From the sequence record PX246730.1: a stretch of 64,000 nucleotides of DNA. The stretch is one strand, 5' to 3'. This DNA comes from a phage. Position 1 is the first letter of the stretch. Every line of letters starts with the position of its first letter. Under the pieces are notes generated by a model, which was not told the origin of the DNA, ran no database searches, and saw only the letters and a list, made by a program, of their open reading frames with translations. Position numbers and translations under genes: made by a program. Positions 79 through 43,169 of this stretch are shown one piece after another.

Positions 79-450
79 ATGAAAAACAGAACAAACAAAG
101 GCCAGTTTAAAAAAGGCCAGTCTGGAAACCCATCTGGAAGACCAAAAGGCTCTCGTAACAAAAGCTCTCTCGTAAAAGCTCAACTGACCATTGATAATTC
201 TGCTGAGTTTGCTGCAAAGTTGTTTGAGGCGATTGTTACAAGGGACGCTGCTAAGCTTGCAGAGTTCGGTTTGACGACTGACGATGTAAACCTGAAGTCG
301 ATGATGGAAGCTGGTAAAACTATCATGACCCACTCAGCAGGTGAGATGAAAGCCATTGCAGCAGATACTAAGAAGACCCCTGATAACGGTGGTCAGTCTC
401 AGACAGATAACAAACCAACGTTCTCTGCTGTAGCGACTCTCAAAAAATAA
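79..450 (+). CDS. hypothetical protein (123 aa, basic Gly/Lys-rich N-terminus)
   Basis: ORF track; no recognisable catalytic motif. Confidence 0.45.
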   Translation: MKNRTNKGQFKKGQSGNPSGRPKGSRNKSSLVKAQLTIDNSAEFAAKLFEAIVTRDAAKLAEFGLTTDDVNLKSMMEAGKTIMTHSAGEMKAIAADTKKTPDNGGQSQTDNKPTFSAVATLKK

Positions 451-462
451 TTTTAAAAGGTG

Positions 463-492
463 TTGACAGACTCTACAAAGTTGCTCTAAAGT
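463..492 (+). promoter_or_regulatory. sigma70-like promoter candidate (TTGACA-N18-TAAAGT)
   Basis: TTGACA at 463-468, -10-like hexamer about 487-492, upstream of CDS at 532. Confidence 0.4.
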
Positions 493-531
493 CTGTCACA
501 TCAAACAACAAATGAGAGAAGAGAGTAAAAT

Positions 532-1947
532 ATGAGCGAGTTATTCAAACATGCGCACCTTCATGCAGGTCGAACTGAAAATGGTGCTGTAAACCATACT
601 TCATCAATGTCTGCTCTGGTAGACTTCTACAAAGCCGCTGGCTCAAGCCGTAGCAATGTAGAAATCTTACCAGACCTGTTCTACAAAGCTTTGCGTGAGG
701 ATGTTGATGTTGCAGTTCGTATTTTACTGCATATGCGAGATGTACGAGAAGGTATGGGTGAGCGTAAAGCCTTCAGAACTGTTTTGCTTCAAGCGATTGA
801 AGACAAAGTTTTAGAGCCTACACAGGTTCTTCGCATTATGGATAAGATTGCAGAGCTTGGTCGTTTTGATGACTTCAAAATCTTCGTAGGTACTCGTTTT
901 GAGACAGATGCCTTTAAGCATTTAGAAGCAGCATTACTAGACCCTGAGACAGCAGGTTTAGCAGCCAAGTGGTTACCACGAGTAAAACCACGACACAAAC
1001 AGTTTGTAAAACGTTTCTGTAAGTTTGCAAACTTAAGCGAGAAAGAGTATCGCACACTGTTATCTGCACTGTCTGATACGGTTGAGCAAAAAATCTCTGC
1101 TAATGAGTTTGGTAAGATTGATTACAGTAAGATTCCTTCTCTTGCTGCTGCACGTTACCAAAAACTCTTTAACCGTAAAGATGGAGAACGCTACAAAGCT
1201 TACATTGAGTCGCTATCAAAAGGTGAAGCTAAGATTAATGCTGGTGCTGTCTACCCATACGATGTGATTAAATCTATCAAGCATGGTAATGCAGATGTTG
1301 CTAATGAGCAGTGGAAAGCACTACCAAACTGGATGGCAGAAGGTGAGAACATCTTGTGTATGACTGATGTCTCAAGCTCAATGTCTTGGGTGAATCTTGG
1401 TTCAATCACGGCTCTTGATATTGGTGTATCTCTTGCCCTGTATGTAGCAGAACGCAATACTGGTTGCTTTAAGAATGAGTTAATGGTTTATTCAACAAAC
1501 CCTCATTTCATTGAACTGAGTGGTGATTTACGAAACCGTCATCGTCAGGTGATGCGACACGTTGAATATGGTTCAACTAACTTACAAGCAGCTTTTGACC
1601 GTATTCTTGAGACAGGTAAAAGAAACAACTTGACTCAGAAAGATATGCCAAGTAAGCTTATCATCTTCTCAGATATGGAATTCAATCAGGTTGATGGAGC
1701 TAATGGTCGTACAAACTTTGAAGCAATTCAGAGTAAGTACAAAAAAGCTGGATATGAGATGCCACAACTGGTATTCTGGTACTTAGCAAACCGTAATGGT
1801 ACTTGCGAAGTGTCTGTTAAGGATAACGGTGTAGCAATGGTATCTGGTTTCTCTCCAGCCACTTTAAAAGCTCTGCTTGGTGGTGAGAAGTTTGACCCAA
1901 CCAGCGTAATGCTCAAAGCAGTAATGATTGACCGTTACATCTGGTAA
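532..1947 (+). CDS. vWA-domain protein (471 aa), possibly TROVE/Ro60-like architecture
   Basis: C-terminal MIDAS-like motif D-V-S-S-S (CMTDVSSSMSW) typical of von Willebrand A domains; about 270 aa helical N-terminal region. Confidence 0.6.
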   Translation: MSELFKHAHLHAGRTENGAVNHTSSMSALVDFYKAAGSSRSNVEILPDLFYKALREDVDVAVRILLHMRDVREGMGERKAFRTVLLQAIEDKVLEPTQVLRIMDKIAELGRFDDFKIFVGTRFETDAFKHLEAALLDPETAGLAAKWLPRVKPRHKQFVKRFCKFANLSEKEYRTLLSALSDTVEQKISANEFGKIDYSKIPSLAAARYQKLFNRKDGERYKAYIESLSKGEAKINAGAVYPYDVIKSIKHGNADVANEQWKALPNWMAEGENILCMTDVSSSMSWVNLGSITALDIGVSLALYVAERNTGCFKNELMVYSTNPHFIELSGDLRNRHRQVMRHVEYGSTNLQAAFDRILETGKRNNLTQKDMPSKLIIFSDMEFNQVDGANGRTNFEAIQSKYKKAGYEMPQLVFWYLANRNGTCEVSVKDNGVAMVSGFSPATLKALLGGEKFDPTSVMLKAVMIDRYIW

Positions 1948-1965: not shown

Positions 1966-1994
1966 TTGACAATGTGTTTGATACCCTTTAATAT
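1966..1994 (+). promoter_or_regulatory. sigma70-like promoter (TTGACA-N17-TAATAT)
   Basis: -35 TTGACA 1966-1971, 17 bp spacer, -10 TAATAT 1989-1994. Confidence 0.55.
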
Positions 1995-2056
1995 GTCCTA
2001 CATAGAAACGAAATGAGAGCTTTTCTAAGATACTGAAAAATATTTTAAAAAAGTTC

Positions 2057-2086
2057 TTGACAACCACTAAAAAATAATGTTAAAGT
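2057..2086 (+). promoter_or_regulatory. sigma70-like promoter candidate preceding tRNA cluster
   Basis: TTGACA 2057-2062, -10-like TAAAGT about 2081-2086, immediately upstream of first tRNA. Confidence 0.4.
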
Positions 2087-2112: not shown

Positions 2113-2186
2113 CTCTGTTTAGCTCAGCTTGGTAGAGCGTTCCGTTTGGGGCGGTAAGGCCGGAGGTTCAAGTCCTCCAACAGAGA
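2113..2186 (+). tRNA. tRNA-Pro(TGG)
   Basis: 7 bp acceptor CTCTGTT/AACAGAG, D-stem GCTC/GAGC, anticodon loop ttTGGgg, T-arm GGAGG-TTCAAGT-CCTCC, CCA encoded. Confidence 0.7.
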
Positions 2187-2196
2187 CCAAATTAAT

Positions 2197-2271
2197 GTTC
2201 CAGTAGACAAAATGGTATAGTCACCACTCTTTCAAAGTGGATATTTGAGGGTTCAAATCCCTTCTGGAACG
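2197..2271 (+). tRNA. tRNA-Glu(TTC)
   Basis: acceptor GTTCCAG/CTGGAAC, anticodon stem CCACT/AGTGG with loop ctTTCaa, T-loop TTCAAAT, CCA encoded. Confidence 0.7.
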
Positions 2272-2285
2272 CCAGTTTTGACAGA

Positions 2286-2352
2286 AGACCAATTGCAGCA
2301 AACTTAATCTTATTCATCTGAAGGTAAATCGGACAAAGAAGAGATTTGGTCT
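2286..2352 (+). repeat. spacer hairpin element copy a (CAGAAGACCAA ... TTGGTCTGG)
   Basis: inverted repeat AGACCAA/TTGGTCT flanking about 55 nt; conserved internal motif cagcaaaCTTAA; first of four paralogous copies. Confidence 0.6.
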
Positions 2353-2365
2353 GGTCATTAAGAAT

Positions 2366-2439
2366 TGCGGGTATAGAGAAAGGGCGTCTCACATGTCTCA
2401 TTAGCATGGTATCGGCAGGTTCGACTCCTGCACCCGCCT
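2366..2439 (+). tRNA. tRNA with CAT anticodon (Met, fMet or Ile2)
   Basis: acceptor pairs with ACCCGCC with 1:72 mismatch, D-stem GAGA/TCTC, anticodon stem CATGT/GCATG with loop ctCATta, T-arm GCAGG-TTCGACT-CCTGC. Confidence 0.55.
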
Positions 2440-2452
2440 CCAAATTTACAGA

Positions 2453-2511
2453 AGACCGTTTACAGCAATACTTATTAAATTTTTAGCGGAAAAAATTGAA
2501 AGATACGGTCT
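2453..2511 (+). repeat. spacer hairpin element copy b (AGACCGT ... ACGGTCT)
   Basis: same conserved 5' motif tttacagaagaccgtttacagcaa and 3' ggtctggtaat as copies a, c, d. Confidence 0.6.
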
Positions 2512-2526
2512 GGTAATACTAAACAT

Positions 2527-2600
2527 GGTTAGGAAGCACATAAGGTATGTGCGGTCGCCTGTTAAGCGAATGGCACAGGGTTCGAATCCCTGACTAACCG
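2527..2600 (+). tRNA. tRNA-Asn(GTT)
   Basis: acceptor GGTTAGG/ACTAACC (6 of 7 bp), anticodon loop ctGTTaa, T-arm CAGGG-TTCGAAT-CCCTG. Confidence 0.6.
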
Positions 2601-2611
2601 CAAAATTTAAA

Positions 2612-2698
2612 TGTGTCGTTATCCCGTAGATGGTAGCGGTGGGGACTGTAAATCCCTTGTCATTGAGACTCGGTAGGTTCGACTCCTACACGGCACAC
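2612..2698 (+). tRNA. tRNA-Tyr(GTA)
   Basis: acceptor TGTGTCG/CGGCACA, anticodon stem GGGGA/TCCCT with loop ctGTAaa, long variable arm, T-loop TTCGACT, CCA encoded. Confidence 0.7.
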
Positions 2699-2764
2699 CA
2701 ATTTTGAGAGGGCTATTTAGCCCCTCCCTTAAAGAGTTCTTACGAGTATTCTTTAAAGGAGCAG

Positions 2765-2833
2765 AAGACCAAATACAGCAAGTTACTTAAAATTTCAAGC
2801 CAATTTAATTTTGAAAAATTTAAAACTTGGTCT
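2765..2833 (+). repeat. spacer hairpin element copy c (AGACCAA ... TTGGTCT)
   Basis: conserved gcagaagaccaaatacagcaagttacttaa and cttggtctgg. Confidence 0.6.
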
Positions 2834-2852
2834 GGCTCAACAAATTTACAGA

Positions 2853-2978
2853 AGACCGTTTACAGCAAAACTTAAACAATCTATTTCTCTGGTAAAGAAA
2901 AGGCGAAGGTTCGATTCCTTCACTCGGCAGATGTCGAGTTGGTGTAATGGTAGCACTTAAGATGATAAACAACGGTCT
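2853..2978 (+). repeat. spacer hairpin element copy d, enclosing tRNA-like pieces
   Basis: inverted repeat AGACCGT (2853-2859) / ACGGTCT (2972-2978) flanks the permuted tRNA-Thr-like segment. Confidence 0.6.
2884..2957 (+). tRNA. tRNA-Thr(GGT)-like, apparently circularly permuted (3' two-thirds upstream of 5' third)
   Basis: 2884-2929: anticodon arm TTTCT-ctGGTaa-AGAAA, T-arm GAAGG-TTCGATT-CCTTC, 3' acceptor ACTCGGC plus discriminator; 2933-2957: 5' acceptor GTCGAGT (pairs 7 of 7 with ACTCGGC incl. one GU) plus complete D-arm GTGT-aatggta-GCAC. Confidence 0.35.
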
Positions 2979-3129
2979 GGTAATTATCTTTGTAGATAAG
3001 TTATTAAGCTTACCTGTGAGTATGCGACCACAAAGGGTGAAAGGGTAAATTCTAGATTTAAACCCAACAAGGCACATCGCTACAGACCTTAAGCAAGTCT
3101 GGGTAGCTTATCTACAAAGATAATTTAAT

Positions 3130-3202
3130 GGAAGTGTAGCAGAATGGTGATGCGGCAGACTTTTAATCTGACAGGCGATGGGTTCGAATCCCTCCACTTC
3201 TA
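3130..3202 (+). tRNA. tRNA-Lys(TTT) (probable)
   Basis: acceptor GGAAGTG/CACTTCT, anticodon loop ctTTTaa, T-loop TTCGAAT, CCA encoded; T-stem imperfect. Confidence 0.55.
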
Positions 3203-3209
3203 CCAATAT

Positions 3210-3283
3210 GGTTCAGTCGCAGATAAGGTAATGCAGGGGTCTCATAAGCCCTATGAATGTGGGTTCGATTCCCATCTGAACCT
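3210..3283 (+). tRNA. tRNA with CAT anticodon (Met, fMet or Ile2)
   Basis: perfect acceptor GGTTCAG/CTGAACC, anticodon stem GGGGT/GCCCT with loop ctCATaa, T-arm GTGGG-TTCGATT-CCCAT, CCA encoded. Confidence 0.65.
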
Positions 3284-3288
3284 CCAAT

Positions 3289-3361
3289 GCTGTGAAAGCA
3301 CATATGGATGTGCATTCGGCTGATAACCGAAAGGAAGAAGGTTCGAATCCTTCTCACAGTA
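3289..3361 (+). tRNA. tRNA-Ile(GAT)
   Basis: acceptor GCTGTGA/TCACAGT, D-stem GCAC/GTGC, anticodon stem TTCGG/CCGAA with loop ctGATaa, T-arm GAAGG-TTCGAAT-CCTTC, CCA encoded. Confidence 0.75.
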
Positions 3362-3379
3362 CCAATTTCAATAAAGTTG

Positions 3380-3408
3380 TTGACACTGAGATGTGACTAC
3401 TTTATAGT
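3380..3408 (+). promoter_or_regulatory. sigma70-like promoter (TTGACA-N17-TATAGT) inside tRNA cluster
   Basis: -35 TTGACA 3380-3385, -10 TATAGT 3403-3408. Confidence 0.55.
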
Positions 3409-3613
3409 AACCTTAGTTTTCGTTGCGTAGCGTCTATTTTGCAAATTTAAAATAAATGCAAACGACAATGTTTTTCTGGCAGTAGCTTGATAGGCTAAAC
3501 ACCAGTGAGGTCTTCCAATCCCTCATCAAAGAATTTGGCGTACTAGCCCACGGTATGATTAATAAGGTGGGCATCTTTAAGGGCTTTCTAAGAGAGTCTT
3601 TAAAGATTAATTA

Positions 3614-3692
3614 CGGGGCGTATCTCATCTGTCTTCTAAACAGACGTTAACCGAGTAAGTGGAGTATGCGGGTTCGAGTCCTGCCGCCTCGA
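3614..3692 (+). tRNA. tRNA-like element with TCT (Arg-type) anticodon loop, atypical D region
   Basis: acceptor CGGGGCG/CGCCTCG, perfect anticodon arm TCTGT-ctTCTaa-ACAGA, T-loop TTCGAGT, CCA encoded; only 7 nt between acceptor and anticodon stem, 22 nt before T-arm. Confidence 0.4.
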
Positions 3693-3838
3693 CCAATTTA
3701 GTTAGCAGATTACTTAGACGACCTAAGCGGGTCTTCCTGTAGGGAGGTGGTCTGTATCTCATGTTTTCCAGAACATGTAAATAATCTGAGAAGGGGCTTT
3801 ACAGTGTTGAGATAATACGGTAAGCTTCGAATTATAGT

Positions 3839-3918
3839 ATGGGACGATGTTAAGACTCTAAGGCATGAGCAACGGCTTCCAACACCGTTTCAAAGGGGTT
3901 CGACTCCTCCGTCCCATG
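3839..3918 (+). tRNA. tRNA, anticodon unresolved (possibly Trp CCA)
   Basis: perfect acceptor ATGGGAC/GTCCCAT, T-loop TTCGACT, CCA encoded; anticodon region ACGG-cttCCAaca-CCGT has a 9-nt loop. Confidence 0.45.
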
Positions 3919-3934
3919 CCAAAGTCTTATTAGG

Positions 3935-4022
3935 GGTAGGTAGCGGCTAATGGTAGCCAAACTGTCTTGAAAACAGTTGCCACTGTAGAGATACGGTGAG
4001 GGTTCGACTTCTTTACTTACCG
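3935..4022 (+). tRNA. tRNA-Ser(TGA)
   Basis: acceptor GGTAGGT/ACTTACC, anticodon arm ACTGT-ctTGAaa-ACAGT, long variable arm, T-loop TTCGACT. Confidence 0.7.
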
Positions 4023-4178
4023 CCTAATAAGATTTTAAAGCCAAGCTTCATTCGGATGTTGCTTTGGTATCCCTCGTGTTGTCGAACACACTAATAAAGC
4101 ACCTAGTAGGTGTCACGGAGAAGAGATAATATCAAGCTCTCCAAAGGTTCTAGTCACCGGATTAAACAAGACTATGCA

Positions 4179-4200
4179 AAGACCTTTTTAGGTCTTTTTA
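4179..4200 (+). terminator. hairpin plus T-run (possible intrinsic terminator or processing site)
   Basis: AAGACC-ttttta-GGTCTT followed by TTTA. Confidence 0.4.
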
Positions 4201-4278
4201 GAGGGCTTCTAAGGTTATTACAGCTTGTTGTGGAACCTTGTTGCTTAGGTTCTTAGAAGTTCTCTAAAAAGATTTAAT

Positions 4279-4353
4279 GGGAGATTGACGGTAATTGGTA
4301 AACCTATCTCGCTTAGAACGAGATGTTTGAGGGTTCGAATCCCTTGTCTCCTA
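4279..4353 (+). tRNA. tRNA-Leu(TAG), short variable loop
   Basis: acceptor GGGAGAT/GTCTCCT, anticodon arm ATCTCG-ctTAGaa-CGAGAT, T-arm GAGGG-TTCGAAT-CCCTT, CCA encoded. Confidence 0.55.
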
Positions 4354-4363
4354 CCAAATTAAT

Positions 4364-4436
4364 GCAGGTGTAGCAAAATGGTTATGCGGCTGACTCTTAA
4401 TCAGTAAGACGATGGGTTCAATTCCCTCCACCTGTA
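4364..4436 (+). tRNA. tRNA-Lys(CTT) (probable)
   Basis: acceptor GCAGGTG/CACCTGT, D-stem GCA/TGC, anticodon arm GCTGA-ctCTTaa-TCAGT, T-loop TTCAATT, CCA encoded. Confidence 0.6.
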
Positions 4437-4445
4437 CCAGATATT

Positions 4446-4518
4446 GGGGATGTAGTTTACATGGTTAAAACATAAGTTTTGCAAAATTAAGTACAGGGTT
4501 CAATTCCCTGCTTCTCCA
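4446..4518 (+). tRNA. tRNA-Ala(TGC)
   Basis: acceptor with G3:T70 wobble pair (Ala identity element), D-stem GTTT/AAAC, anticodon loop ttTGCaa, T-arm CAGGG-TTCAATT-CCCTG, CCA encoded. Confidence 0.65.
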
Positions 4519-4527
4519 CCAATTAGT

Positions 4528-4599
4528 GCATCCATAGTTTAAACGGGAAAATTACAGTCTTCCAAACTGAGGTTGAGGGTTCGATTCCCTCTGGATGCT
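4528..4599 (+). tRNA. tRNA-Gly(TCC)
   Basis: perfect acceptor GCATCCA/TGGATGC, anticodon arm CAGT-ctTCCaa-ACTG, T-arm GAGGG-TTCGATT-CCCTC, CCA encoded. Confidence 0.7.
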
Positions 4600-4608
4600 C
4601 CAAATAAT

Positions 4609-4682
4609 GCTGCTTTCGTATAATTGGCTATTACACATCCCTTGTAAGGATGGAAATGCAGGTTCGAGTCCTGTGAGCAGCA
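4609..4682 (+). tRNA. tRNA-Thr(TGT)
   Basis: acceptor GCTGCTT/GAGCAGC, anticodon arm CATCC-ctTGTaa-GGATG, T-arm GCAGG-TTCGAGT-CCTGT, CCA encoded. Confidence 0.75.
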
Positions 4683-4780
4683 CCAATTCAGAGGTCAAGT
4701 GAAAGACCGCTGGTGTCAACTGAAGACCGTAACAAATTCCACGGAGTTGAGTTAGCGGCACAACTTCAGACCTCTTTCAC

Positions 4781-4852
4781 ACTCGCTTAGTTTATATGGT
4801 AAAACACCACCCTTACAAGATGAAGAAAAAGGTTCAAGTCCTTTAGTGAGTA
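4781..4852 (+). tRNA. tRNA-Val(TAC) (tentative; weak anticodon stem)
   Basis: acceptor ACTCGCT/AGTGAGT, D-stem GTTT/AAAC, loop ctTACaa, perfect T-arm AAAGG-TTCAAGT-CCTTT, CCA encoded. Confidence 0.45.
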
Positions 4853-4856
4853 CCAT

Positions 4857-4931
4857 GTTCCAGTATCCCAATTGGCAGAGGATGCAAGCTCAAACCTTGT
4901 ACTAGTGACGGTTCGAATCCGTCTTGGAACA
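4857..4931 (+). tRNA. tRNA-Leu(CAA), short variable loop
   Basis: acceptor GTTCCAG/TTGGAAC, D-stem TCC/GGA with 11-nt loop, anticodon arm GCAAG-ctCAAac-CTTGT, T-arm GACGG-TTCGAAT-CCGTC, CCA encoded. Confidence 0.55.
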
Positions 4932-4939
4932 CCAATTTT

Positions 4940-5012
4940 GCAGGATTAGTTCAAATGGATAGAGCAACAGTCTACGAAGCTGTTAATAGGGGTTCGAATC
5001 CCTTATCCTGCG
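4940..5012 (+). tRNA. tRNA-Arg(ACG)
   Basis: perfect acceptor GCAGGAT/ATCCTGC, anticodon arm ACAGT-ctACGaa-GCTGT, T-arm TAGGG-TTCGAAT-CCCTT, CCA encoded. Confidence 0.75.
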
Positions 5013-5034
5013 CCAATTTAAAGAGGCTATTTAG

Positions 5035-5592
5035 ATGAGATATTTGAAGTATGCTTCATGGATTTTCTTAGCTTTGTTAGAGCCATTTGCAGCAATCTTA
5101 GCAGTAATTTTAGCACCCTTTGTGGTTCCATTCTACAGTGAAAAGAAAGGACACTTACCTTTTGGATTCAGATGGATGGAGACTTATGATAACCCAATTG
5201 ATGGTGACAAAGGCCACGTTGAGAGATGGGCTAAGATTAGAAAGATTGGTAAGCTCGGTGTTTATATGCAGAGAGTTGGATGGCTCTGGAGAAACAAAGC
5301 TTATAACTTCTCTTACCATGTGCTAGGAAGAGATGTAAAAGATGTTACTAAGTGGAAAGGTAATATCAACGTAAGTTCTAACCCTGAAGATAATCAGACA
5401 GGTTATCTCCTAATGTGGAACAGTAATGCTTGGGGATTATTCGCTTTTACCCCATCAATTAAAATCTTTGGTAAACAATTCTACTGGAGAATTTATGTTG
5501 GATGGAAACTTAAAAGTGTTGTCCCAGAAGAAAGAGCATTCTCAAGGGAAAGAGTTATGTTGGCATTCTTTATTCATCCACTAAGAAAGTAA
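5035..5592 (+). CDS. hypothetical membrane protein (185 aa) embedded in tRNA cluster
   Basis: ORF track; hydrophobic N-terminal segment (IFLALLEPFAAILAVILAPFVVPF); Trp/aromatic-rich. Confidence 0.5.
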   Translation: MRYLKYASWIFLALLEPFAAILAVILAPFVVPFYSEKKGHLPFGFRWMETYDNPIDGDKGHVERWAKIRKIGKLGVYMQRVGWLWRNKAYNFSYHVLGRDVKDVTKWKGNINVSSNPEDNQTGYLLMWNSNAWGLFAFTPSIKIFGKQFYWRIYVGWKLKSVVPEERAFSRERVMLAFFIHPLRK

Positions 5593-5600
5593 AGATTTAA

Positions 5601-5673
5601 AGGGGATTAGTTTACAAGGTTAAAACCTCGGTCTTTGAAATCGAAGAAGTTGGTTCAATTCCAACATCCCCCA
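5601..5673 (+). tRNA. tRNA-Gln(TTG)
   Basis: acceptor AGGGGAT/ATCCCCC (1:72 mismatch), D-stem GTTT/AAAC, anticodon arm TCGGT-ctTTGaa-ATCGA, T-arm GTTGG-TTCAATT-CCAAC, CCA encoded. Confidence 0.6.
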
Positions 5674-5678
5674 CCAAT

Positions 5679-5754
5679 GCTCCATTACTCCAATTGGCAG
5701 AGAGGCCAGACTTAAAATCTGTGTTATGTATCGGTTCGAATCCGATATGGAGTA
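5679..5754 (+). tRNA. tRNA-Leu(TAA), short variable loop
   Basis: acceptor GCTCCAT/ATGGAGT, D-arm paralogous to the CAA tRNA (caattggcaga), loop ctTAAaa, T-arm ATCGG-TTCGAAT-CCGAT, CCA encoded. Confidence 0.55.
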
Positions 5755-5762
5755 CCAAATTT

Positions 5763-5835
5763 AGCGGTATAGCATAACTGGCAATGCAGCAGTCTCTGAA
5801 GCTGTCCTATTAAGGTTCAAATCCTTATGCCGCTG
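5763..5835 (+). tRNA. tRNA-Gln(CTG)
   Basis: acceptor AGCGGTA/TGCCGCT, anticodon arm GCAGT-ctCTGaa-GCTGT, T-arm TAAGG-TTCAAAT-CCTTA, CCA encoded. Confidence 0.6.
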
Positions 5836-5869
5836 CCACTTCTAAGGGTTCTTACGAGAGTCCTTAAAT

Positions 5870-5942
5870 GTGGCCTTATCATAAAAGGTAATGACCCATG
5901 CTGTGAACATGGTCTATACGGGTTCAAATCCCGTAGGTCACC
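5870..5942 (+). tRNA. tRNA-His(GTG)
   Basis: acceptor GTGGCCT/AGGTCAC, anticodon arm CCATG-ctGTGaa-CATGG, T-arm ACGGG-TTCAAAT-CCCGT, CCA encoded. Confidence 0.75.
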
Positions 5943-5950
5943 CCAATTTA

Positions 5951-6024
5951 TAGTCCAAGTAGCTTATATGGTAAAGCGCGTGTCTGAAAAACATGAGAAG
6001 AGGGTTCAAATCCCACTGGACTAC
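5951..6024 (+). tRNA. tRNA-Phe(GAA)
   Basis: acceptor TAGTCCA/TGGACTA, anticodon arm CGTGT-ctGAAaa-ACATG, T-loop TTCAAAT. Confidence 0.7.
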
Positions 6025-6042
6025 CAATTTCAAAGGTGCTTA

Positions 6043-6777
6043 ATGAAAGAGATGACAGAACAAGGTAAGGAGATTTTTAATCTCTTAAAAACCGGTAGAG
6101 GGTTTTCTAATCCCCTTATTACTGGTGCAGCAGTTCTCGGTGGAACCGTAGCTGCCTCTACATCACTTGTAAGCTCTATTAGCTCTGTAACAGACCCTAC
6201 AATAAAAGATAAGCTTGTTGCTGCTGGGCTTACAACAGTCCTCCTAAACAGCTTTACAACAAGCCTGACAAGCACTACAGCAACTACTAAGACCCTGACA
6301 GACTACGGTCAAAAGTCTATTGATGAGTTTTCATCACGTATGCAGGTAGCAAAGGGATACTCCAATGTTATGGGTGCAGCAGGAGAACAAGTTGGTTGTA
6401 CACCATTCAGTGGTATTATGGGTGTTGCTACAGAGTATGGTCAAAAAGCTATTGACATGATGAACAGTACACTAGATAGTGTTAATGGTGTGTTAAGTGA
6501 CTTACAAGATGCTATTGATAAGGGTCTTGATACTGTTTCTGATTTAGCTAACCAAGCTGTTAGTAAGATTAATGAAGGTATCTCGAAGATTACAGCTTAT
6601 GCAGATGAAGTTGTGCAGATGATTGAAGAAGAAGCTGCCCTTATTGCAGAGTACCTTAAAACGAATATCAATGGGTTCTTAGCAGGTATCTTACCAGACT
6701 GGTTTGATGATGCCTGTAAAACTGGTGTAATTGACACTATTGCAACACCAGAAATGAAGAGCGCATTACAGAAATAA
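6043..6777 (+). CDS. hypothetical Ser/Thr-rich protein (244 aa)
   Basis: ORF 5827-6777 trimmed to ATG at 6043 because upstream part overlaps tRNA-His/Phe; no motif recognised. Confidence 0.5.
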   Translation: MKEMTEQGKEIFNLLKTGRGFSNPLITGAAVLGGTVAASTSLVSSISSVTDPTIKDKLVAAGLTTVLLNSFTTSLTSTTATTKTLTDYGQKSIDEFSSRMQVAKGYSNVMGAAGEQVGCTPFSGIMGVATEYGQKAIDMMNSTLDSVNGVLSDLQDAIDKGLDTVSDLANQAVSKINEGISKITAYADEVVQMIEEEAALIAEYLKTNINGFLAGILPDWFDDACKTGVIDTIATPEMKSALQK

Positions 6778-6778
6778 T

Positions 6779-6868
6779 GGAAGATTAACCCTAAAAGGTA
6801 AGGGAGCAGTTTGCTAAACTGCCAGTAGCTGAGAAATCGGTGTACCAGTTCAAGTCTGGTATCTTCCT
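6779..6868 (+). tRNA. tRNA-Ser(GCT)
   Basis: perfect acceptor GGAAGAT/ATCTTCC, perfect anticodon arm GCAGT-ttGCTaa-ACTGC, long variable arm, T-arm ACCAG-TTCAAGT-CTGGT, CCA encoded. Confidence 0.8.
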
Positions 6869-6875
6869 CCAATTT

Positions 6876-6948
6876 GAATCCGTGACAGAAATGGATATGT
6901 GCCTGTCTGCAAAACAGGTTTATAAGGGTTCGAGTCCCTTCGGATTCT
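6876..6948 (+). tRNA. tRNA-Cys(GCA)
   Basis: perfect acceptor GAATCCG/CGGATTC, perfect anticodon arm CCTGT-ctGCAaa-ACAGG, T-arm AAGGG-TTCGAGT-CCCTT, CCA encoded. Confidence 0.8.
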
Positions 6949-6988
6949 CCAAGTTATTTTACTCTCTCTCAATTAAAATAATAATAAT

Positions 6989-42368: not shown

Positions 42369-43169
42369 ATGAATATTGATGTAGAAAAGATGCTTGAAGA
42401 GAAAGGTGTTGATGAAGCATTCTTAATCAATGCCGTAGAAAGCATGGCTATGATTCTTCGTGGTAATAACTACACAGAACAGTTTATGCCTGCAAGCTAT
42501 AACTTGCCTGAAGACAAGTCTGATAACGGTGCTTTTGCAGAACAGGTTAATATGATGCTATGCGACAAAACACTTGCTTTAGCATCTATCGTTGTAGGTG
42601 TTGATGCTCTTGCAGAGTTCATTTTTTATGAAATGCAGAAAAATGACTATATTGCCATGACCGCTGAAGAAAAAGACTTGCTACTACTCGCAGGTAATGA
42701 TGAACTAATCGACCTGTTAATTTCATCAACGAGTGCTGTTATGGCTGTTCTTGAGAAGCGCATGGAAGAGAAACTTTCACGATATGAAAAACTTGATTGG
42801 GGTGTAGAAGAATTAAACCCACGAATCAAAGAGATTATCCAGCAAACTAAAAAGTCTTTGGAAGAAGCTGTTGAAAATGACTCTGTAGCTGACATTGAAC
42901 CACTTCAGGTGAAAGTTGCACTGATGATTCCAGCTATCTCTACGATGATGAATATCGTTGCACTAATCCAACTTTCACAGATGATGGGTGTGAGTATTGA
43001 GTTCATTGAGGAAATGACTGGTGGCGTTAGTATGCAAGCAATCAATGATGTTTTGGTGAATATTGGTGCTTCAATCATTGAAGAGAAGCTACGCATTAAC
43101 TTCGGTGATGATTTTGTGAAGCAAATCTCAGCTATGGCTGAAAAAGAGTATGCTGACCAACTGCACTAA
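42369..43169 (+). CDS. hypothetical protein (266 aa)
   Basis: ORF track. Confidence 0.45.
   Translation: MNIDVEKMLEEKGVDEAFLINAVESMAMILRGNNYTEQFMPASYNLPEDKSDNGAFAEQVNMMLCDKTLALASIVVGVDALAEFIFYEMQKNDYIAMTAEEKDLLLLAGNDELIDLLISSTSAVMAVLEKRMEEKLSRYEKLDWGVEELNPRIKEIIQQTKKSLEEAVENDSVADIEPLQVKVALMIPAISTMMNIVALIQLSQMMGVSIEFIEEMTGGVSMQAINDVLVNIGASIIEEKLRINFGDDFVKQISAMAEKEYADQLH

What the first reader, a model, noticed from the sequence alone, without database searches (positions are those of the whole stretch)
2286..2978. Family of four spacer hairpin elements in the 5' part of the tRNA cluster
Four paralogous elements (2286-2352, 2453-2511, 2765-2833, 2853-2978) share the 5' arm (t)t(g/t)acAGAAGACC(a/g)(a/t)tt.cagcaa.acttaa and the 3' arm (a/t)(t/c)GGTCTGG. 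The arms are inverted repeats, so each element can fold as a long hairpin with a variable interior, and one interior holds the permuted tRNA-Thr-like unit. They may be processing sites, small RNAs, promoter-like elements (the 5' arm resembles a -35 TTGACA) or remnants of a mobile sequence.
Basis: seen in the sequence. Interest (0 to 1): 0.55.

Follow-up and report, generated by a model that had tools for sequence, protein, structure and literature searches.

The report
Phage small RNAs beside Ro60-like gene
The four repeated hairpins in this Felix O1-type phage tRNA cluster are genes for small structured RNAs of a widespread, undescribed family that always sits next to a Ro60-like protein gene and carries the same signature as the enigmatic Class I RNAs of social amoebae.

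Summary
Four + strand elements (2279-2357, 2446-2516, 2759-2838, 2846-2983) share one closing module: a covarying 4-bp outer helix, an AGA/G internal loop, a 7-8-bp helix AGACCNN/NNGGUCU, then single-stranded (U)UACAGCAA. Interiors vary. E4 holds a tRNA-like domain with a loop-closed acceptor stem.

My best reading is that E1-E4 are Y-RNA-like partners of a Ro60 paralogue, cut out of the tRNA operon transcript. The association is shown; binding is inferred.

The module matches the defining features of dictyostelid Class I RNAs (AAG start, short stem, CCUUACAGCAA, CUGU end), which are reported as unique to Dictyostelia. Rfam's Dictyostelium model hits E2, E3 and E4 end to end, below threshold. 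The elements fail membership tests for YrlA and for Class I.

The promoter, mobile-element and functional permuted-tRNA readings are not supported.

The parts
532..1947 (+). Gene for a 471-aa DUF2828+DUF7788 protein (Felix O1 ORF42, 'RNA-binding protein', PHROG 850). It has a Ro60/TROVE-type ring plus a vWA domain. Proposed protein partner of the RNAs.
1966..2086 (+). Two strong sigma-70-type promoters (1966-1994 and 2057-2086) at the head of the tRNA/ncRNA cluster. Likely source of the transcript that carries E1-E4.
   Evidence: TTGACA-17-TAATAT (10/12) and TTGACA-18-TAAAGT (10/12). Their function is inferred.
2279..2357 (+). E1. Outer helix 2279-2282/2354-2357. Loop AGA 2283-2285 opposite G2353. 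Inner helix 2286-2292/2346-2352. UUG-CAGCAA 2293-2301. Variable interior 2302-2345. It lies between tRNA-Glu (ends 2274) and tRNA-Met (starts 2366).
2446..2516 (+). E2. Outer helix 2446-2449/2513-2516. Loop 2450-2452 opposite G2512. Inner helix 2453-2459/2505-2511. UUA-CAGCAA 2460-2468. Interior 2469-2504. It lies between tRNA-Met and tRNA-Asn.
   Evidence: Rfam RF01414 matches 2454-2512 at 20.7 bits.
2759..2838 (+). E3. Outer helix 2759-2762/2835-2838. Loop 2763-2765 opposite G2834. Inner helix 2766-2772/2827-2833. AUA-CAGCAA 2773-2781. Interior 2782-2826.
   Evidence: Rfam RF01414 matches 2767-2834 at 15.3 bits.
2846..2983 (+). E4. Outer helix 2846-2849/2980-2983. Loop 2850-2852 opposite G2979. 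Inner helix 2853-2860/2971-2978. UA-CAGCAA 2861-2868. tRNA-like domain 2871-2961, made of: helix CUUA/UAAG 2871-2874/2958-2961; stem-loop 2884-2900 (loop CUGGUAA); T arm 2905-2921; loop-closed acceptor-like stem 2922-2939; D arm 2942-2956.
   Evidence: RNAfold. Rfam tRNA partial match, 27.4 bits, and RF01414 over 2854-2979, 13 bits. RNAalifold on six orthologues gives 28 pairs, 13 with compensatory changes.

Best explanation
E1-E4 are four paralogous genes for small structured non-coding RNAs (about 70-80 nt, and about 138 nt for E4). They are transcribed with the tRNA cluster from the promoters near 1966-2086. They are released when the flanking tRNAs are processed, and the closing helices protect their ends. 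Each RNA carries the same handle: a terminal helix whose last pairs are A-U and G-C (5' A-AG...CU-G 3'), followed on the 5' side by single-stranded N-U-A-CAGCAA and a G-poor tract. I propose that this handle is bound by the Ro60-like DUF2828 protein encoded just upstream (532-1947), in the way Y RNAs bind Ro60. The variable interiors would then act as adaptor modules. E4's tRNA-like domain (YrlA-like topology) would bring the RNP to tRNA-recognising enzymes, or mimic tRNA. E1-E3 would carry other, fast-evolving modules. By analogy with Ro60/Y RNA/PNPase complexes, including the Thermus phage phiLo one, the RNP would redirect or sequester host RNA-processing or RNA-repair machinery during infection. 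Shown: the repeat family, its structure and covariation, the Ro60 fold of the neighbouring protein, and the tight strand-specific co-occurrence of RNA module and gene across distant phages and bacteria. Inferred: transcription and processing, direct protein binding, and every downstream function.
For: (1) The family and its fold are real: 4 exact copies against 0.35 expected and an identical closing structure. Covariation appears between paralogues and in Ounavirinae orthologues. The outer helix reads UUAC/GUAA, UGAC/GUCA, UUGC/GCAA, GAGC/GCUC or GGGC/GUCC. The inner helix reads AGACCGU, AGACCAA, AGACUAU, AGUGUCU or AGAAUCU, each with a matching 3' strand. Interiors are replaced wholesale while arms are kept.
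(2) The neighbouring protein has the Ro60 fold.
(3) Association: in 75 viral contigs whose DUF2828 proteins are 39-48% identical, ACAGCAA occurs 143 times on the gene strand, 48 times on the other strand, and about 42 are expected. The full descriptor gives 82 elements against 0, in 49 of 75 loci, with 79% within 500 nt of the gene. In 1.03 Mb of control viral contigs picked for the 5' half alone, only 7 loci have a complete element, and 4 of those are Felix-like loci with the gene. In bacterial and archaeal contigs with the gene, the counts are 25 against 2 for the descriptor and 224 against 38 for ACAGCAA.
(4) A covariance model trained on 25 elements from half of the loci finds 23 more in held-out loci, all on the gene strand.
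(5) In at least 8 phages a minimal 33-60-nt element ends within 70 nt of the DUF2828 start codon. In L134 and L137 its 3' arm abuts the Shine-Dalgarno sequence, as expected for autoregulation by a protein that binds the module.
(6) The same module is fused to tRNA-like domains in several topologies: permuted in E4 and its orthologues; matching YrlA at 28.7 and 25.2 bits in L196; and inserted in the anticodon loop of tRNA-like genes in Clostridia.
(7) There is precedent. Y RNAs lie within 4 kb of Ro60 genes on the same strand and contain tRNA-like domains (PMC4201824). Phage phiLo Ro60 binds two adjacent phage Y-like RNAs and host PNPase (PMC12135203).
Against: There is no expression, end-mapping or binding data, so the protein-RNA link rests on co-occurrence. 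The canonical Ro60-binding motif of bacterial Y RNAs (GNCGAAN0-1G in the 5' strand of the terminal stem) is absent. The only GGCGAAG in E4 lies at the T stem. Rfam YrlA does not match E4 even at E<=10 on 151 nt. My covariance model R1 does not recover the window's own four elements (at most 14 bits). They join the wider family through the structural descriptor and the Rfam RF01414 alignments, not through R1. 26 of 75 viral loci and most bacterial loci lack a strict-descriptor element, although many carry ACAGCAA with variant closings. In this phage the DUF2828 gene's own leader has no such element. In Dictyostelium the protein shown to bind a Class I RNA directly is an RRM protein (Rnp1A/CIBP), not a Ro-like one.
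Confidence: 0.6

Rival explanations
1. The elements are structured ncRNAs, or tRNA-mimic decoys, that act on their own. They could be sponges or baits for host tRNA-targeting nucleases, or base-pairing sRNAs. The DUF2828 gene would be only a co-inherited neighbour that does not bind them.
For: Interiors evolve fast, as expected under an arms race. tRNA-like domains recur. In Dictyostelium the direct binder found so far is an RRM protein.
Against: The co-occurrence spans phages, bacteria and an archaeal MAG in which almost nothing else is shared. Minimal elements consisting only of the handle sit in the gene's own leader. The conserved part is the handle, not the interior.
Confidence: 0.15
2. 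They are cis-acting processing or stability signals of the tRNA operon, for example RNase III or RNase E entry sites or spacers that insulate tRNA folding, with no trans function.
For: E1 and E2 lie directly between tRNA genes, and E3-E4 lie within the same cluster, between tRNA-Tyr and tRNA-Lys. Long helices are RNase III substrates (established knowledge).
Against: The same module occurs in arrays with no tRNA in 9 kb (L179) and in mRNA leaders. The conserved single-stranded UACAGCAA and the tRNA-like interior are not needed for cleavage. Most tRNA spacers in this same cluster are only 2-10 nt with no such element.
Confidence: 0.12
3. They are remnants of a small mobile or recombining cassette: inverted-repeat arms with exchangeable cargo, acting at the DNA level.
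For: Near-identical arms with unrelated interiors. Whole interiors are swapped between close relatives. Homing endonuclease genes are inserted in this cluster in Felix O1.
Against: Strict strand specificity, 82 against 0. G-U pairs in the helices (27 of 847 pairs) would be A-C mismatches on the other strand. Positions are syntenic. There are no target-site duplications. Conservation follows one protein family over great distances.
Confidence: 0.05
4. The 5' arms are promoters (-35 TTGACA/TTTACA) that drive internal transcription of the tRNA cluster.
For: E1 has TTGACA and E2/E4 have TTTACA. E2 gives a 9/12 match.
Against: Promoter-like matches are at chance level (4 found, 3.9 expected). E3 has GGAGCA. 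These bases covary with the 3' outer strand. Distant family members have no -35-like sequence.
Confidence: 0.03
5. E4 is a circularly permuted tRNA-Thr(GGU) gene that is matured into a working tRNA.
For: All four arms of a tRNA are present and the 7-nt loop CUGGUAA looks like an anticodon loop.
Against: In near-identical phages the loop is CGGUAA (6 nt), CCGGUAA or CUAUGAA, and it is absent from the L203 orthologue. No CCA is encoded, although all tRNAs of the cluster encode one. Bacteria are not known to have a circularisation pathway for permuted pre-tRNAs (established knowledge).
Confidence: 0.03

Closest known systems
Bacterial and phage Y RNAs (YrlA/YrlB, Rfam RF02553; phiLo Yrl1/Yrl2) with Ro60/Rsr
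   Same: One to several small RNAs are encoded within 4 kb of a Ro60-fold protein gene on the same strand. The 5' and 3' ends form a stem that carries a conserved motif. The interior is variable. One member has a tRNA-like domain in the order V, T, closed acceptor-like stem, D, exactly as in YrlA. Relatives in L196 give weak YrlA matches (28.7 and 25.2 bits). Sources: PMC4201824, PMC12135203.
   Different: The protein is a DUF2828/DUF7788 paralogue that sequence methods do not recognise as TROVE (the profile gives Ro60 E = 1.1). The stem motif is A-AG...CU-G plus UACAGCAA instead of GNCGAAN0-1G/CGAA. E4 does not match RF02553 at all. Here the genes are embedded in a tRNA operon.
Dictyostelid Class I RNAs (Rfam RF01414; Aspegren 2004, Avesson 2011, Kjellin 2021)
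   Same: The architecture agrees point by point. Both have AAG at the 5' end, with the G pairing to the C of a 3' CUG(U). Both have a short terminal stem conserved in structure but not sequence. Both have (C)CUUACAGCAA directly after the 5' strand. Both have a G-poor, often CUUA-containing continuation and a variable remainder. Both are multi-copy, often in clusters. The Rfam model built only from Dictyostelium aligns end to end (positions 1-56 of 56) with E2, E3 and E4 and with three elements of L196, with boundaries within 1 nt of mine.
   Different: The scores (13-24 bits) are below the gathering score of 41.5. The linker is 1 nt shorter. The Felix-type copies add an outer helix. Some phage copies are long (up to about 276 nt) or contain tRNA-like domains. 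There is no DUSE promoter. The hosts are phages and bacteria, whereas the family is reported as absent outside Dictyostelia. The only proven direct binder in Dictyostelium is the RRM protein Rnp1A.
Circularly permuted tRNA genes (Cyanidioschyzon merolae and other algae; from my own knowledge)
   Same: In E4 the T arm and 3' acceptor strand precede the 5' acceptor strand and D arm.
   Different: The acceptor stem is closed by a 4-nt loop and has no CCA. The anticodon-like loop is not conserved. The ends of the RNA lie in an added protein-handle helix. No decoding tRNA is expected.

Membership tests
YrlA-type Y RNA (Rfam RF02553; Chen et al. 2014) | Encoded within 4 kb of a Ro60 orthologue, on the same strand | tested here: met
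   E1-E4 lie 332-899 nt downstream of the stop codon (1947) of a Ro60-fold protein gene on the + strand. Caveat: the protein is a DUF2828 paralogue and is not annotated as TROVE.
YrlA-type Y RNA (Rfam RF02553; Chen et al. 2014) | GNCGAAN0-1G motif near the 5' end, in the terminal stem (the likely Rsr-binding site) | tested here: not met
   The 5' strands read (U/G)ACAGAAGACC. The only GGCGAAG, at 2902-2908, is at the T stem of E4.
YrlA-type Y RNA (Rfam RF02553; Chen et al. 2014) | tRNA-like domain with V, T, closed acceptor-like and D stem-loops in that order | tested here: met
   Met for E4 only. E1-E3 lack it, as YrlB is described to.
YrlA-type Y RNA (Rfam RF02553; Chen et al. 2014) | Match to the covariance model at the gathering score (69 bits) | tested here: not met
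   No RF02553 match at E<=10 on 2270-3130 or on 2840-2990. Related elements in L196 reach only 28.7 and 25.2 bits.
YrlA-type Y RNA (Rfam RF02553; Chen et al. 2014) | Bound by the Ro60 orthologue in vivo | not testable with these tools
   Needs RIP/EMSA.
Dictyostelid Class I RNA (Rfam RF01414) | Short stem joining the 5' and 3' ends, conserved in structure but not in sequence | tested here: met
   A 7-8-bp helix in all four. 6 of 7 pairs show double changes across 25 family members, which were selected for pairing.
Dictyostelid Class I RNA (Rfam RF01414) | 11-nt motif CCUUACAGCAA next to the 5' stem strand, with U3, C6, C9, A10 and A11 near invariant | tested here: met
   E2 and E4 read GUUUACAGCAA, E1 reads AAUUGCAGCAA and E3 reads AAAUACAGCAA. 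C6, C9, A10 and A11 are present in all four. U3 is present in three of four. The spacing to the stem is 1 nt shorter.
Dictyostelid Class I RNA (Rfam RF01414) | Conserved ends, AAG at the start and CUGU at the end, with G pairing to C | tested here: met
   All four have A-AG...CU-G(G). Across 121 family members G2 and C6' are 100% by construction of the descriptor, which also allows only A, U or G at position 1. Position 1 is 71% A. The base before the helix, which the descriptor leaves free, is 56% A. The fourth base is G here rather than U. Mature ends are not mapped.
Dictyostelid Class I RNA (Rfam RF01414) | Match to the covariance model at the gathering score (41.5 bits) | tested here: not met
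   20.7 bits (E2), 15.3 (E3), 13.0 (E4) and none for E1.
Dictyostelid Class I RNA (Rfam RF01414) | Length 42-65 nt, DUSE promoter about 60 nt upstream, dictyostelid genome | tested here: not met
   Lengths are 71-80 nt and 138 nt. The elements sit in a phage operon driven by sigma-70-type promoters.
Functional (permuted) tRNA gene | Conserved 7-nt anticodon loop, encoded or addable CCA end, detection by tRNA finders | tested here: not met
   ARAGORN makes no call. The Rfam tRNA match is partial, 26.8-27.4 bits against a gathering score of 29. The loop varies in sequence and length among orthologues.
Sigma-70 promoter | -35 and -10 hexamers with a 16-18-nt spacer in each copy | tested here: not met
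   Only E2 reaches 9/12. Matches in the region are at the shuffle expectation.

The most novel reading that the evidence does not exclude
The phage and bacterial RNAs found here and the dictyostelid Class I RNAs are one ancient RNA class. Its universal partner is the DUF2828 branch of the Ro60 superfamily, a second Ro/Y-RNA-type RNP system parallel to Ro60/Y RNA. It is spread across phages, bacteria and eukaryotes, with tRNA-like cargo domains in several circular permutations. [quoted passage not shown]
Probability: 0.3. Interest if true: 0.92.

Novelty: new variant of a known kind. Interest (0 to 1): 0.8.

Why it matters
The finding would assign a partner RNA, and so a working hypothesis, to DUF2828/DUF7788. 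That protein family has thousands of members in phages, bacteria and eukaryotes and I found no functional literature on it: DUF2828 appears in 5 unrelated papers and its other identifiers in 3. It would add a second Ro-type RNP to the Ro60/Y RNA paradigm. It would explain unannotated spacers in the tRNA clusters of Felix O1-type phages, which are used in therapy and typing. It would show that a phage tRNA operon also encodes tRNA mimics. It would also give the first out-group relatives of the Dictyostelium Class I RNAs, which were reported as unique to social amoebae and tied to multicellularity. That points to a concrete candidate partner protein to test.

Tried and rejected
1. Single-sequence AlphaFold of the ORF gave pLDDT 44 and was unusable. 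It was redone with a 61-sequence alignment.

2. Sequence searches of the protein against the PDB found nothing for phmmer. The profile found Ro60 only at E = 1.1. NCBIfam and PADLOC gave nothing useful.

3. The afdb50 fold library was unavailable. I therefore could not look for a Dictyostelium DUF2828 structure or identify DDB_G0281243. Text and supplement searches for that gene gave only its name. Avesson 2011 is not held.

4. An exact-pattern scan of viral contigs with AGAAGACCN5CAGCAA returned mostly single chance hits. I reused them as a control set.

5. A full-text search for ACAGCAA returned 13,085 papers that hold the string; none of the 25 listed was relevant.

6. Covariance model R1, built from trimmed elements, worked on held-out loci but scored the window's own copies at 14 bits or less. 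With filters off it reported no hit longer than about 45 nt. Its best window hit, 42826-42863, lies inside a 266-aa ORF and I take it as chance.

7. Neighbouring genes in bacterial loci (SPFH, DnaJ-like, aminotransferase) gave no functional clue. No RtcB or PNPase was seen.

8. Outgroup Class I candidates from the Kjellin supplement, such as an Arabidopsis hit with CM score 40, are too weak to use.
Full report
**Source and setting.** The window is a Felixounavirus genome segment. It is 97% identical to Salmonella phage Felix O1 across the tRNA cluster, and 277 phage records match. Positions 2113-6951 hold 24 tRNA genes on the + strand. They follow two strong sigma-70-type promoters at 1966-1994 and 2057-2086. 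Upstream lie a DUF5681 gene (79-450) and a 471-aa gene (532-1947) with Pfam DUF2828 and DUF7788. In the Felix O1 RefSeq record nothing is annotated at the positions of the finding.

**The observation.** The pattern CAGAAGACCNNNTRCAGCAA occurs four times with no mismatch, all on the + strand, at 2282, 2449, 2762 and 2849. Shuffles give 0.35 matches even with three mismatches allowed (also family D12/D13).

RNAfold gives the four elements the same closing structure:
- a 4-bp outer helix;
- an asymmetric internal loop, AGA opposite a single G;
- a 7-8-bp inner helix, AGACCNN/NNGGUCU;
- an unpaired (U)UA-CAGCAA.

The outer helix differs between copies in a compensated way: UGAC/GUCA in E1, UUAC/GUAA in E2 and E4, and GAGC/GCUC in E3. 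The inner end of the inner helix is also compensated (CCGU/ACGG against CCAA/UUGG). Full extents are 2279-2357, 2446-2516, 2759-2838 and 2846-2983.

In E4 the interior folds into four parts after a short CUUA/UAAG helix: a stem-loop with a 7-nt loop, a canonical T arm (GAAGG-UUCGAUU-CCUUC), an acceptor-like stem closed by a 4-nt loop, and a D arm. Rfam's tRNA model matches the first half at 27.4 bits.

**Orthologues.** In other Ounavirinae-like contigs the protein is 99-54% identical (L001, L122-L126, L202-L205, L286). There the arms are kept and keep covarying. The outer helix reads UUGC/GCAA or GGGC/GUCC. The inner helix reads AGACUAU, AGUGUCU or AGAAUCU, each with a matching partner. The interiors of E1 and E2 are replaced by unrelated sequence.

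For E4, an RNAalifold consensus of six orthologues recovers the outer and inner helices, the T arm, the closed acceptor-like stem and the D arm. It has 28 pairs, 13 of them with compensatory changes. The anticodon-like loop is CUGGUAA here. It is CGGUAA in Felix O1, CCGGUAA in L126 and CUAUGAA in L205, and it is missing in L203. No CCA follows the acceptor strand. E4 is therefore a tRNA mimic and not a decoding tRNA.

**The neighbouring protein.** Sequence methods do not connect ORF 532-1947 to any solved structure. phmmer finds nothing, and a 61-sequence profile finds Ro60 only at E = 1.1. An AlphaFold2 model built on that alignment is confident (pLDDT 89, pTM 0.88). Its only full-length structural relatives are Ro60/TROVE proteins:
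- Foldseek's top 11 hits are all Ro60/TROVE, E 4e-8 to 9e-7.

A DxSxS MIDAS-like triad is invariant in the family. PHROGs calls the family 'RNA-binding protein'. I found no functional literature on DUF2828.

**Association of the RNA module with the gene.** I fetched 80 viral contigs that encode relatives of the protein. Seventy-five of them are only 39-48% identical. In those 75, ACAGCAA occurs 143 times on the gene strand and 48 times on the other, with about 42 expected per strand. The occurrences lie next to the gene and all have the same anatomy: A, then a 7-bp helix beginning AG, then N-U-A/U, then CAGCAA, then a G-poor tract, a variable interior, the complementary strand ending CU, and G.

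A descriptor that requires this anatomy finds 82 elements outside ORFs on the gene strand and none on the other strand. They fall in 49 of 75 loci. 79% are within 500 nt of the gene. Three further checks:
- In 1.03 Mb of control viral contigs chosen only for the 5' half of the pattern, 7 loci have a complete element. Four of these are Felix-like loci that carry the gene.
- In 80 bacterial and archaeal contigs with the gene, the descriptor gives 25 against 2 and ACAGCAA gives 224 against 38.
- A covariance model trained on 25 elements from L127-L158 finds 23 further elements in held-out loci, all on the gene strand, with E from 3e-5 to 0.2.

That model scores the window's own copies poorly (14 bits or less). 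I record this as a weakness. Their membership rests on the descriptor (4 on +, 0 on -, and 22 hits in 300 shuffles counted on both strands) and on the Rfam alignments described below.

**Clues to mechanism.**
1. In at least eight phages a minimal element of 33-60 nt ends within 70 nt of the DUF2828 start codon. In L134 and L137 its 3' strand runs into the Shine-Dalgarno sequence. This is the arrangement expected if the protein binds the module and represses its own translation.
2. The module is repeatedly joined to tRNA-like domains. The permuted form is seen in E4 and its orthologues. Two elements of L196 match Rfam YrlA at 28.7 and 25.2 bits through their T, acceptor-like and D arms. In Oscillospiraceae and other Clostridia there are arrays of tRNA-model hits (47-54 bits) with a 46-53-nt insert in the anticodon loop. 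The insert is a hairpin followed by UA-ACAGCAA. This is the same two-dimensional structure as E4, with the ends moved to the acceptor stem.
3. Ro60 proteins are known to bind Y RNAs through the stem formed by the RNA ends. Bacterial YrlA RNAs have a tRNA-like domain in exactly the order seen in E4, and their genes lie within 4 kb of the Ro60 gene on the same strand (PMC4201824). A phage Ro60 binds two adjacent phage Y-like RNAs and recruits host PNPase (PMC12135203).

I therefore propose that E1-E4 are Y-RNA-like partners of the DUF2828 Ro60 paralogue, released from the tRNA operon transcript. The handle would bind the protein and the interiors would act as adaptors. Binding, processing and downstream function are inferred and not shown.

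**Comparison with known families.** The elements are not members of YrlA. The GNCGAAN0-1G motif is absent from the terminal stem, and RF02553 does not match.

The only Rfam family apart from tRNA and the plastid families (on E4's - strand) that touches them is RF01414, the Class I RNAs of Dictyostelium. It aligns end to end with E2 (20.7 bits), E3 (15.3) and E4 (13.0), and with three elements of L196 (24.3, 19.7 and 16.0 bits). The boundaries fall within 1 nt of mine. All scores are below the gathering score of 41.5.

The published definition of Class I RNAs has these parts (PMC7919456; sequences):
- AAG start;
- a 6-bp terminal stem conserved in structure only;
- the 11-nt motif CCUUACAGCAA next to the 5' strand;
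- a variable remainder;
- a CUGU end whose C pairs with the 5' G.

The phage module agrees on each point, apart from a linker 1 nt shorter. That paper reports the class as absent outside Dictyostelia.

[quoted passage not shown] I could not determine whether it is a DUF2828 protein. The resemblance may reflect common descent or convergence on a related protein surface. In Dictyostelium the only proven direct binder is an RRM protein.

**Rejected readings.**
- Promoter: only E2 reaches 9/12, at chance level. E3 lacks a -35. The supposed -35 bases covary with the 3' strand.
- Mobile element: strict strand bias, G-U pairs (27 of 847), and syntenic positions.
- Pure processing signal: the same elements occur without tRNAs and in mRNA leaders.
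- Functional permuted tRNA: variable loop, no CCA.

**Verdict.** The most likely identity is a new Ro60-paralogue/Y-like RNA system whose RNA handle carries the Class I RNA signature. It is a new variant of a known kind. If the link to Dictyostelium and to DUF2828 binding holds, it would be considerably more interesting.

Noticed in passing
window 2982-3127: Directly 3' of E4 lies a 146-nt structure closed by a 24-bp stem (MFE -47.9 kcal/mol, z -5.7, 0 of 200 shuffles as stable). It has no CAGCAA motif and no Rfam match. It may be another ncRNA of the cluster.
   Followed up: partly
window 4686-4782: A nested-helix RNA lies between tRNA-Thr and tRNA-Val (z -3.2). It contains CUGAAGACCGUAACA, which resembles the 5' arm of E2/E4, but it lacks CAGCAA and the GGUCUG partner. 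It could be a decayed fifth copy.
   Followed up: partly
window 2701-2760; also 3573-3607, 4188-4277, 5838-5870: Two hairpins (z -3.4) occupy the place where Felix O1 has tRNA-Asp. The second one (CTTAAAGAGTTCTTACGAG...) appears to belong to a small family of similar AT-rich hairpins scattered through the tRNA cluster.
   Followed up: no
window 3614-3692: Rfam's tRNA model scores 33.4 bits here, above its gathering score of 29, but ARAGORN calls no tRNA. It may be an atypical or degenerate tRNA.
   Followed up: no
L244 1700-2880, L269 1500-2800, L275 1380-2900, L265 2170-2900: In Oscillospiraceae, Clostridia and Treponema contigs, arrays of up to 6-8 tRNA-like genes lie just upstream of the DUF2828 gene. 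Rfam's tRNA model scores them 47-54 bits. Each carries a 46-53-nt insert in the anticodon loop made of a hairpin plus UA-ACAGCAA. ARAGORN does not call them. The topology is a circular permutation of E4.
   Followed up: partly
L129 3954-3987, L134 1764-1796, L137 2859-2891, L146 3950-3986, L148 3903-3938, L184 3907-3944, L193 3887-3943: Minimal 33-57-nt versions of the element sit in the 5'UTR of the DUF2828 gene. In L129, L134, L137 and L146 the 3' arm ends 11-16 nt before the start codon and abuts the Shine-Dalgarno sequence, which suggests translational autoregulation. In L148, L184 and L193 the arm ends 57-63 nt upstream. The window's own gene has no such leader element.
   Followed up: partly
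window 79-450 and 532-1947; L202-L205, L286: The order DUF5681 gene, DUF2828 gene, tRNA cluster is conserved in all Ounavirinae-like contigs examined. The small DUF5681 protein (PHROG 4114, unknown function) may belong to the same module.
   Followed up: no
window 463-500: An 8-bp inverted repeat (GACAGACT...AGTCTGTC) spans the -35 to just beyond the -10 of the promoter in front of the DUF2828 gene. It could be an operator-like site. It shares TTGACAGA with the 5' edge of E1.
   Followed up: no
L204 7140-7900 (Yersinia phage vB_YenM_P778): The elements of this phage use a variant closing, A-GG...CC-AG, in place of A-AG...CU-G. This is a compensated change of the terminal pair. The strict descriptor misses them.
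   Followed up: partly
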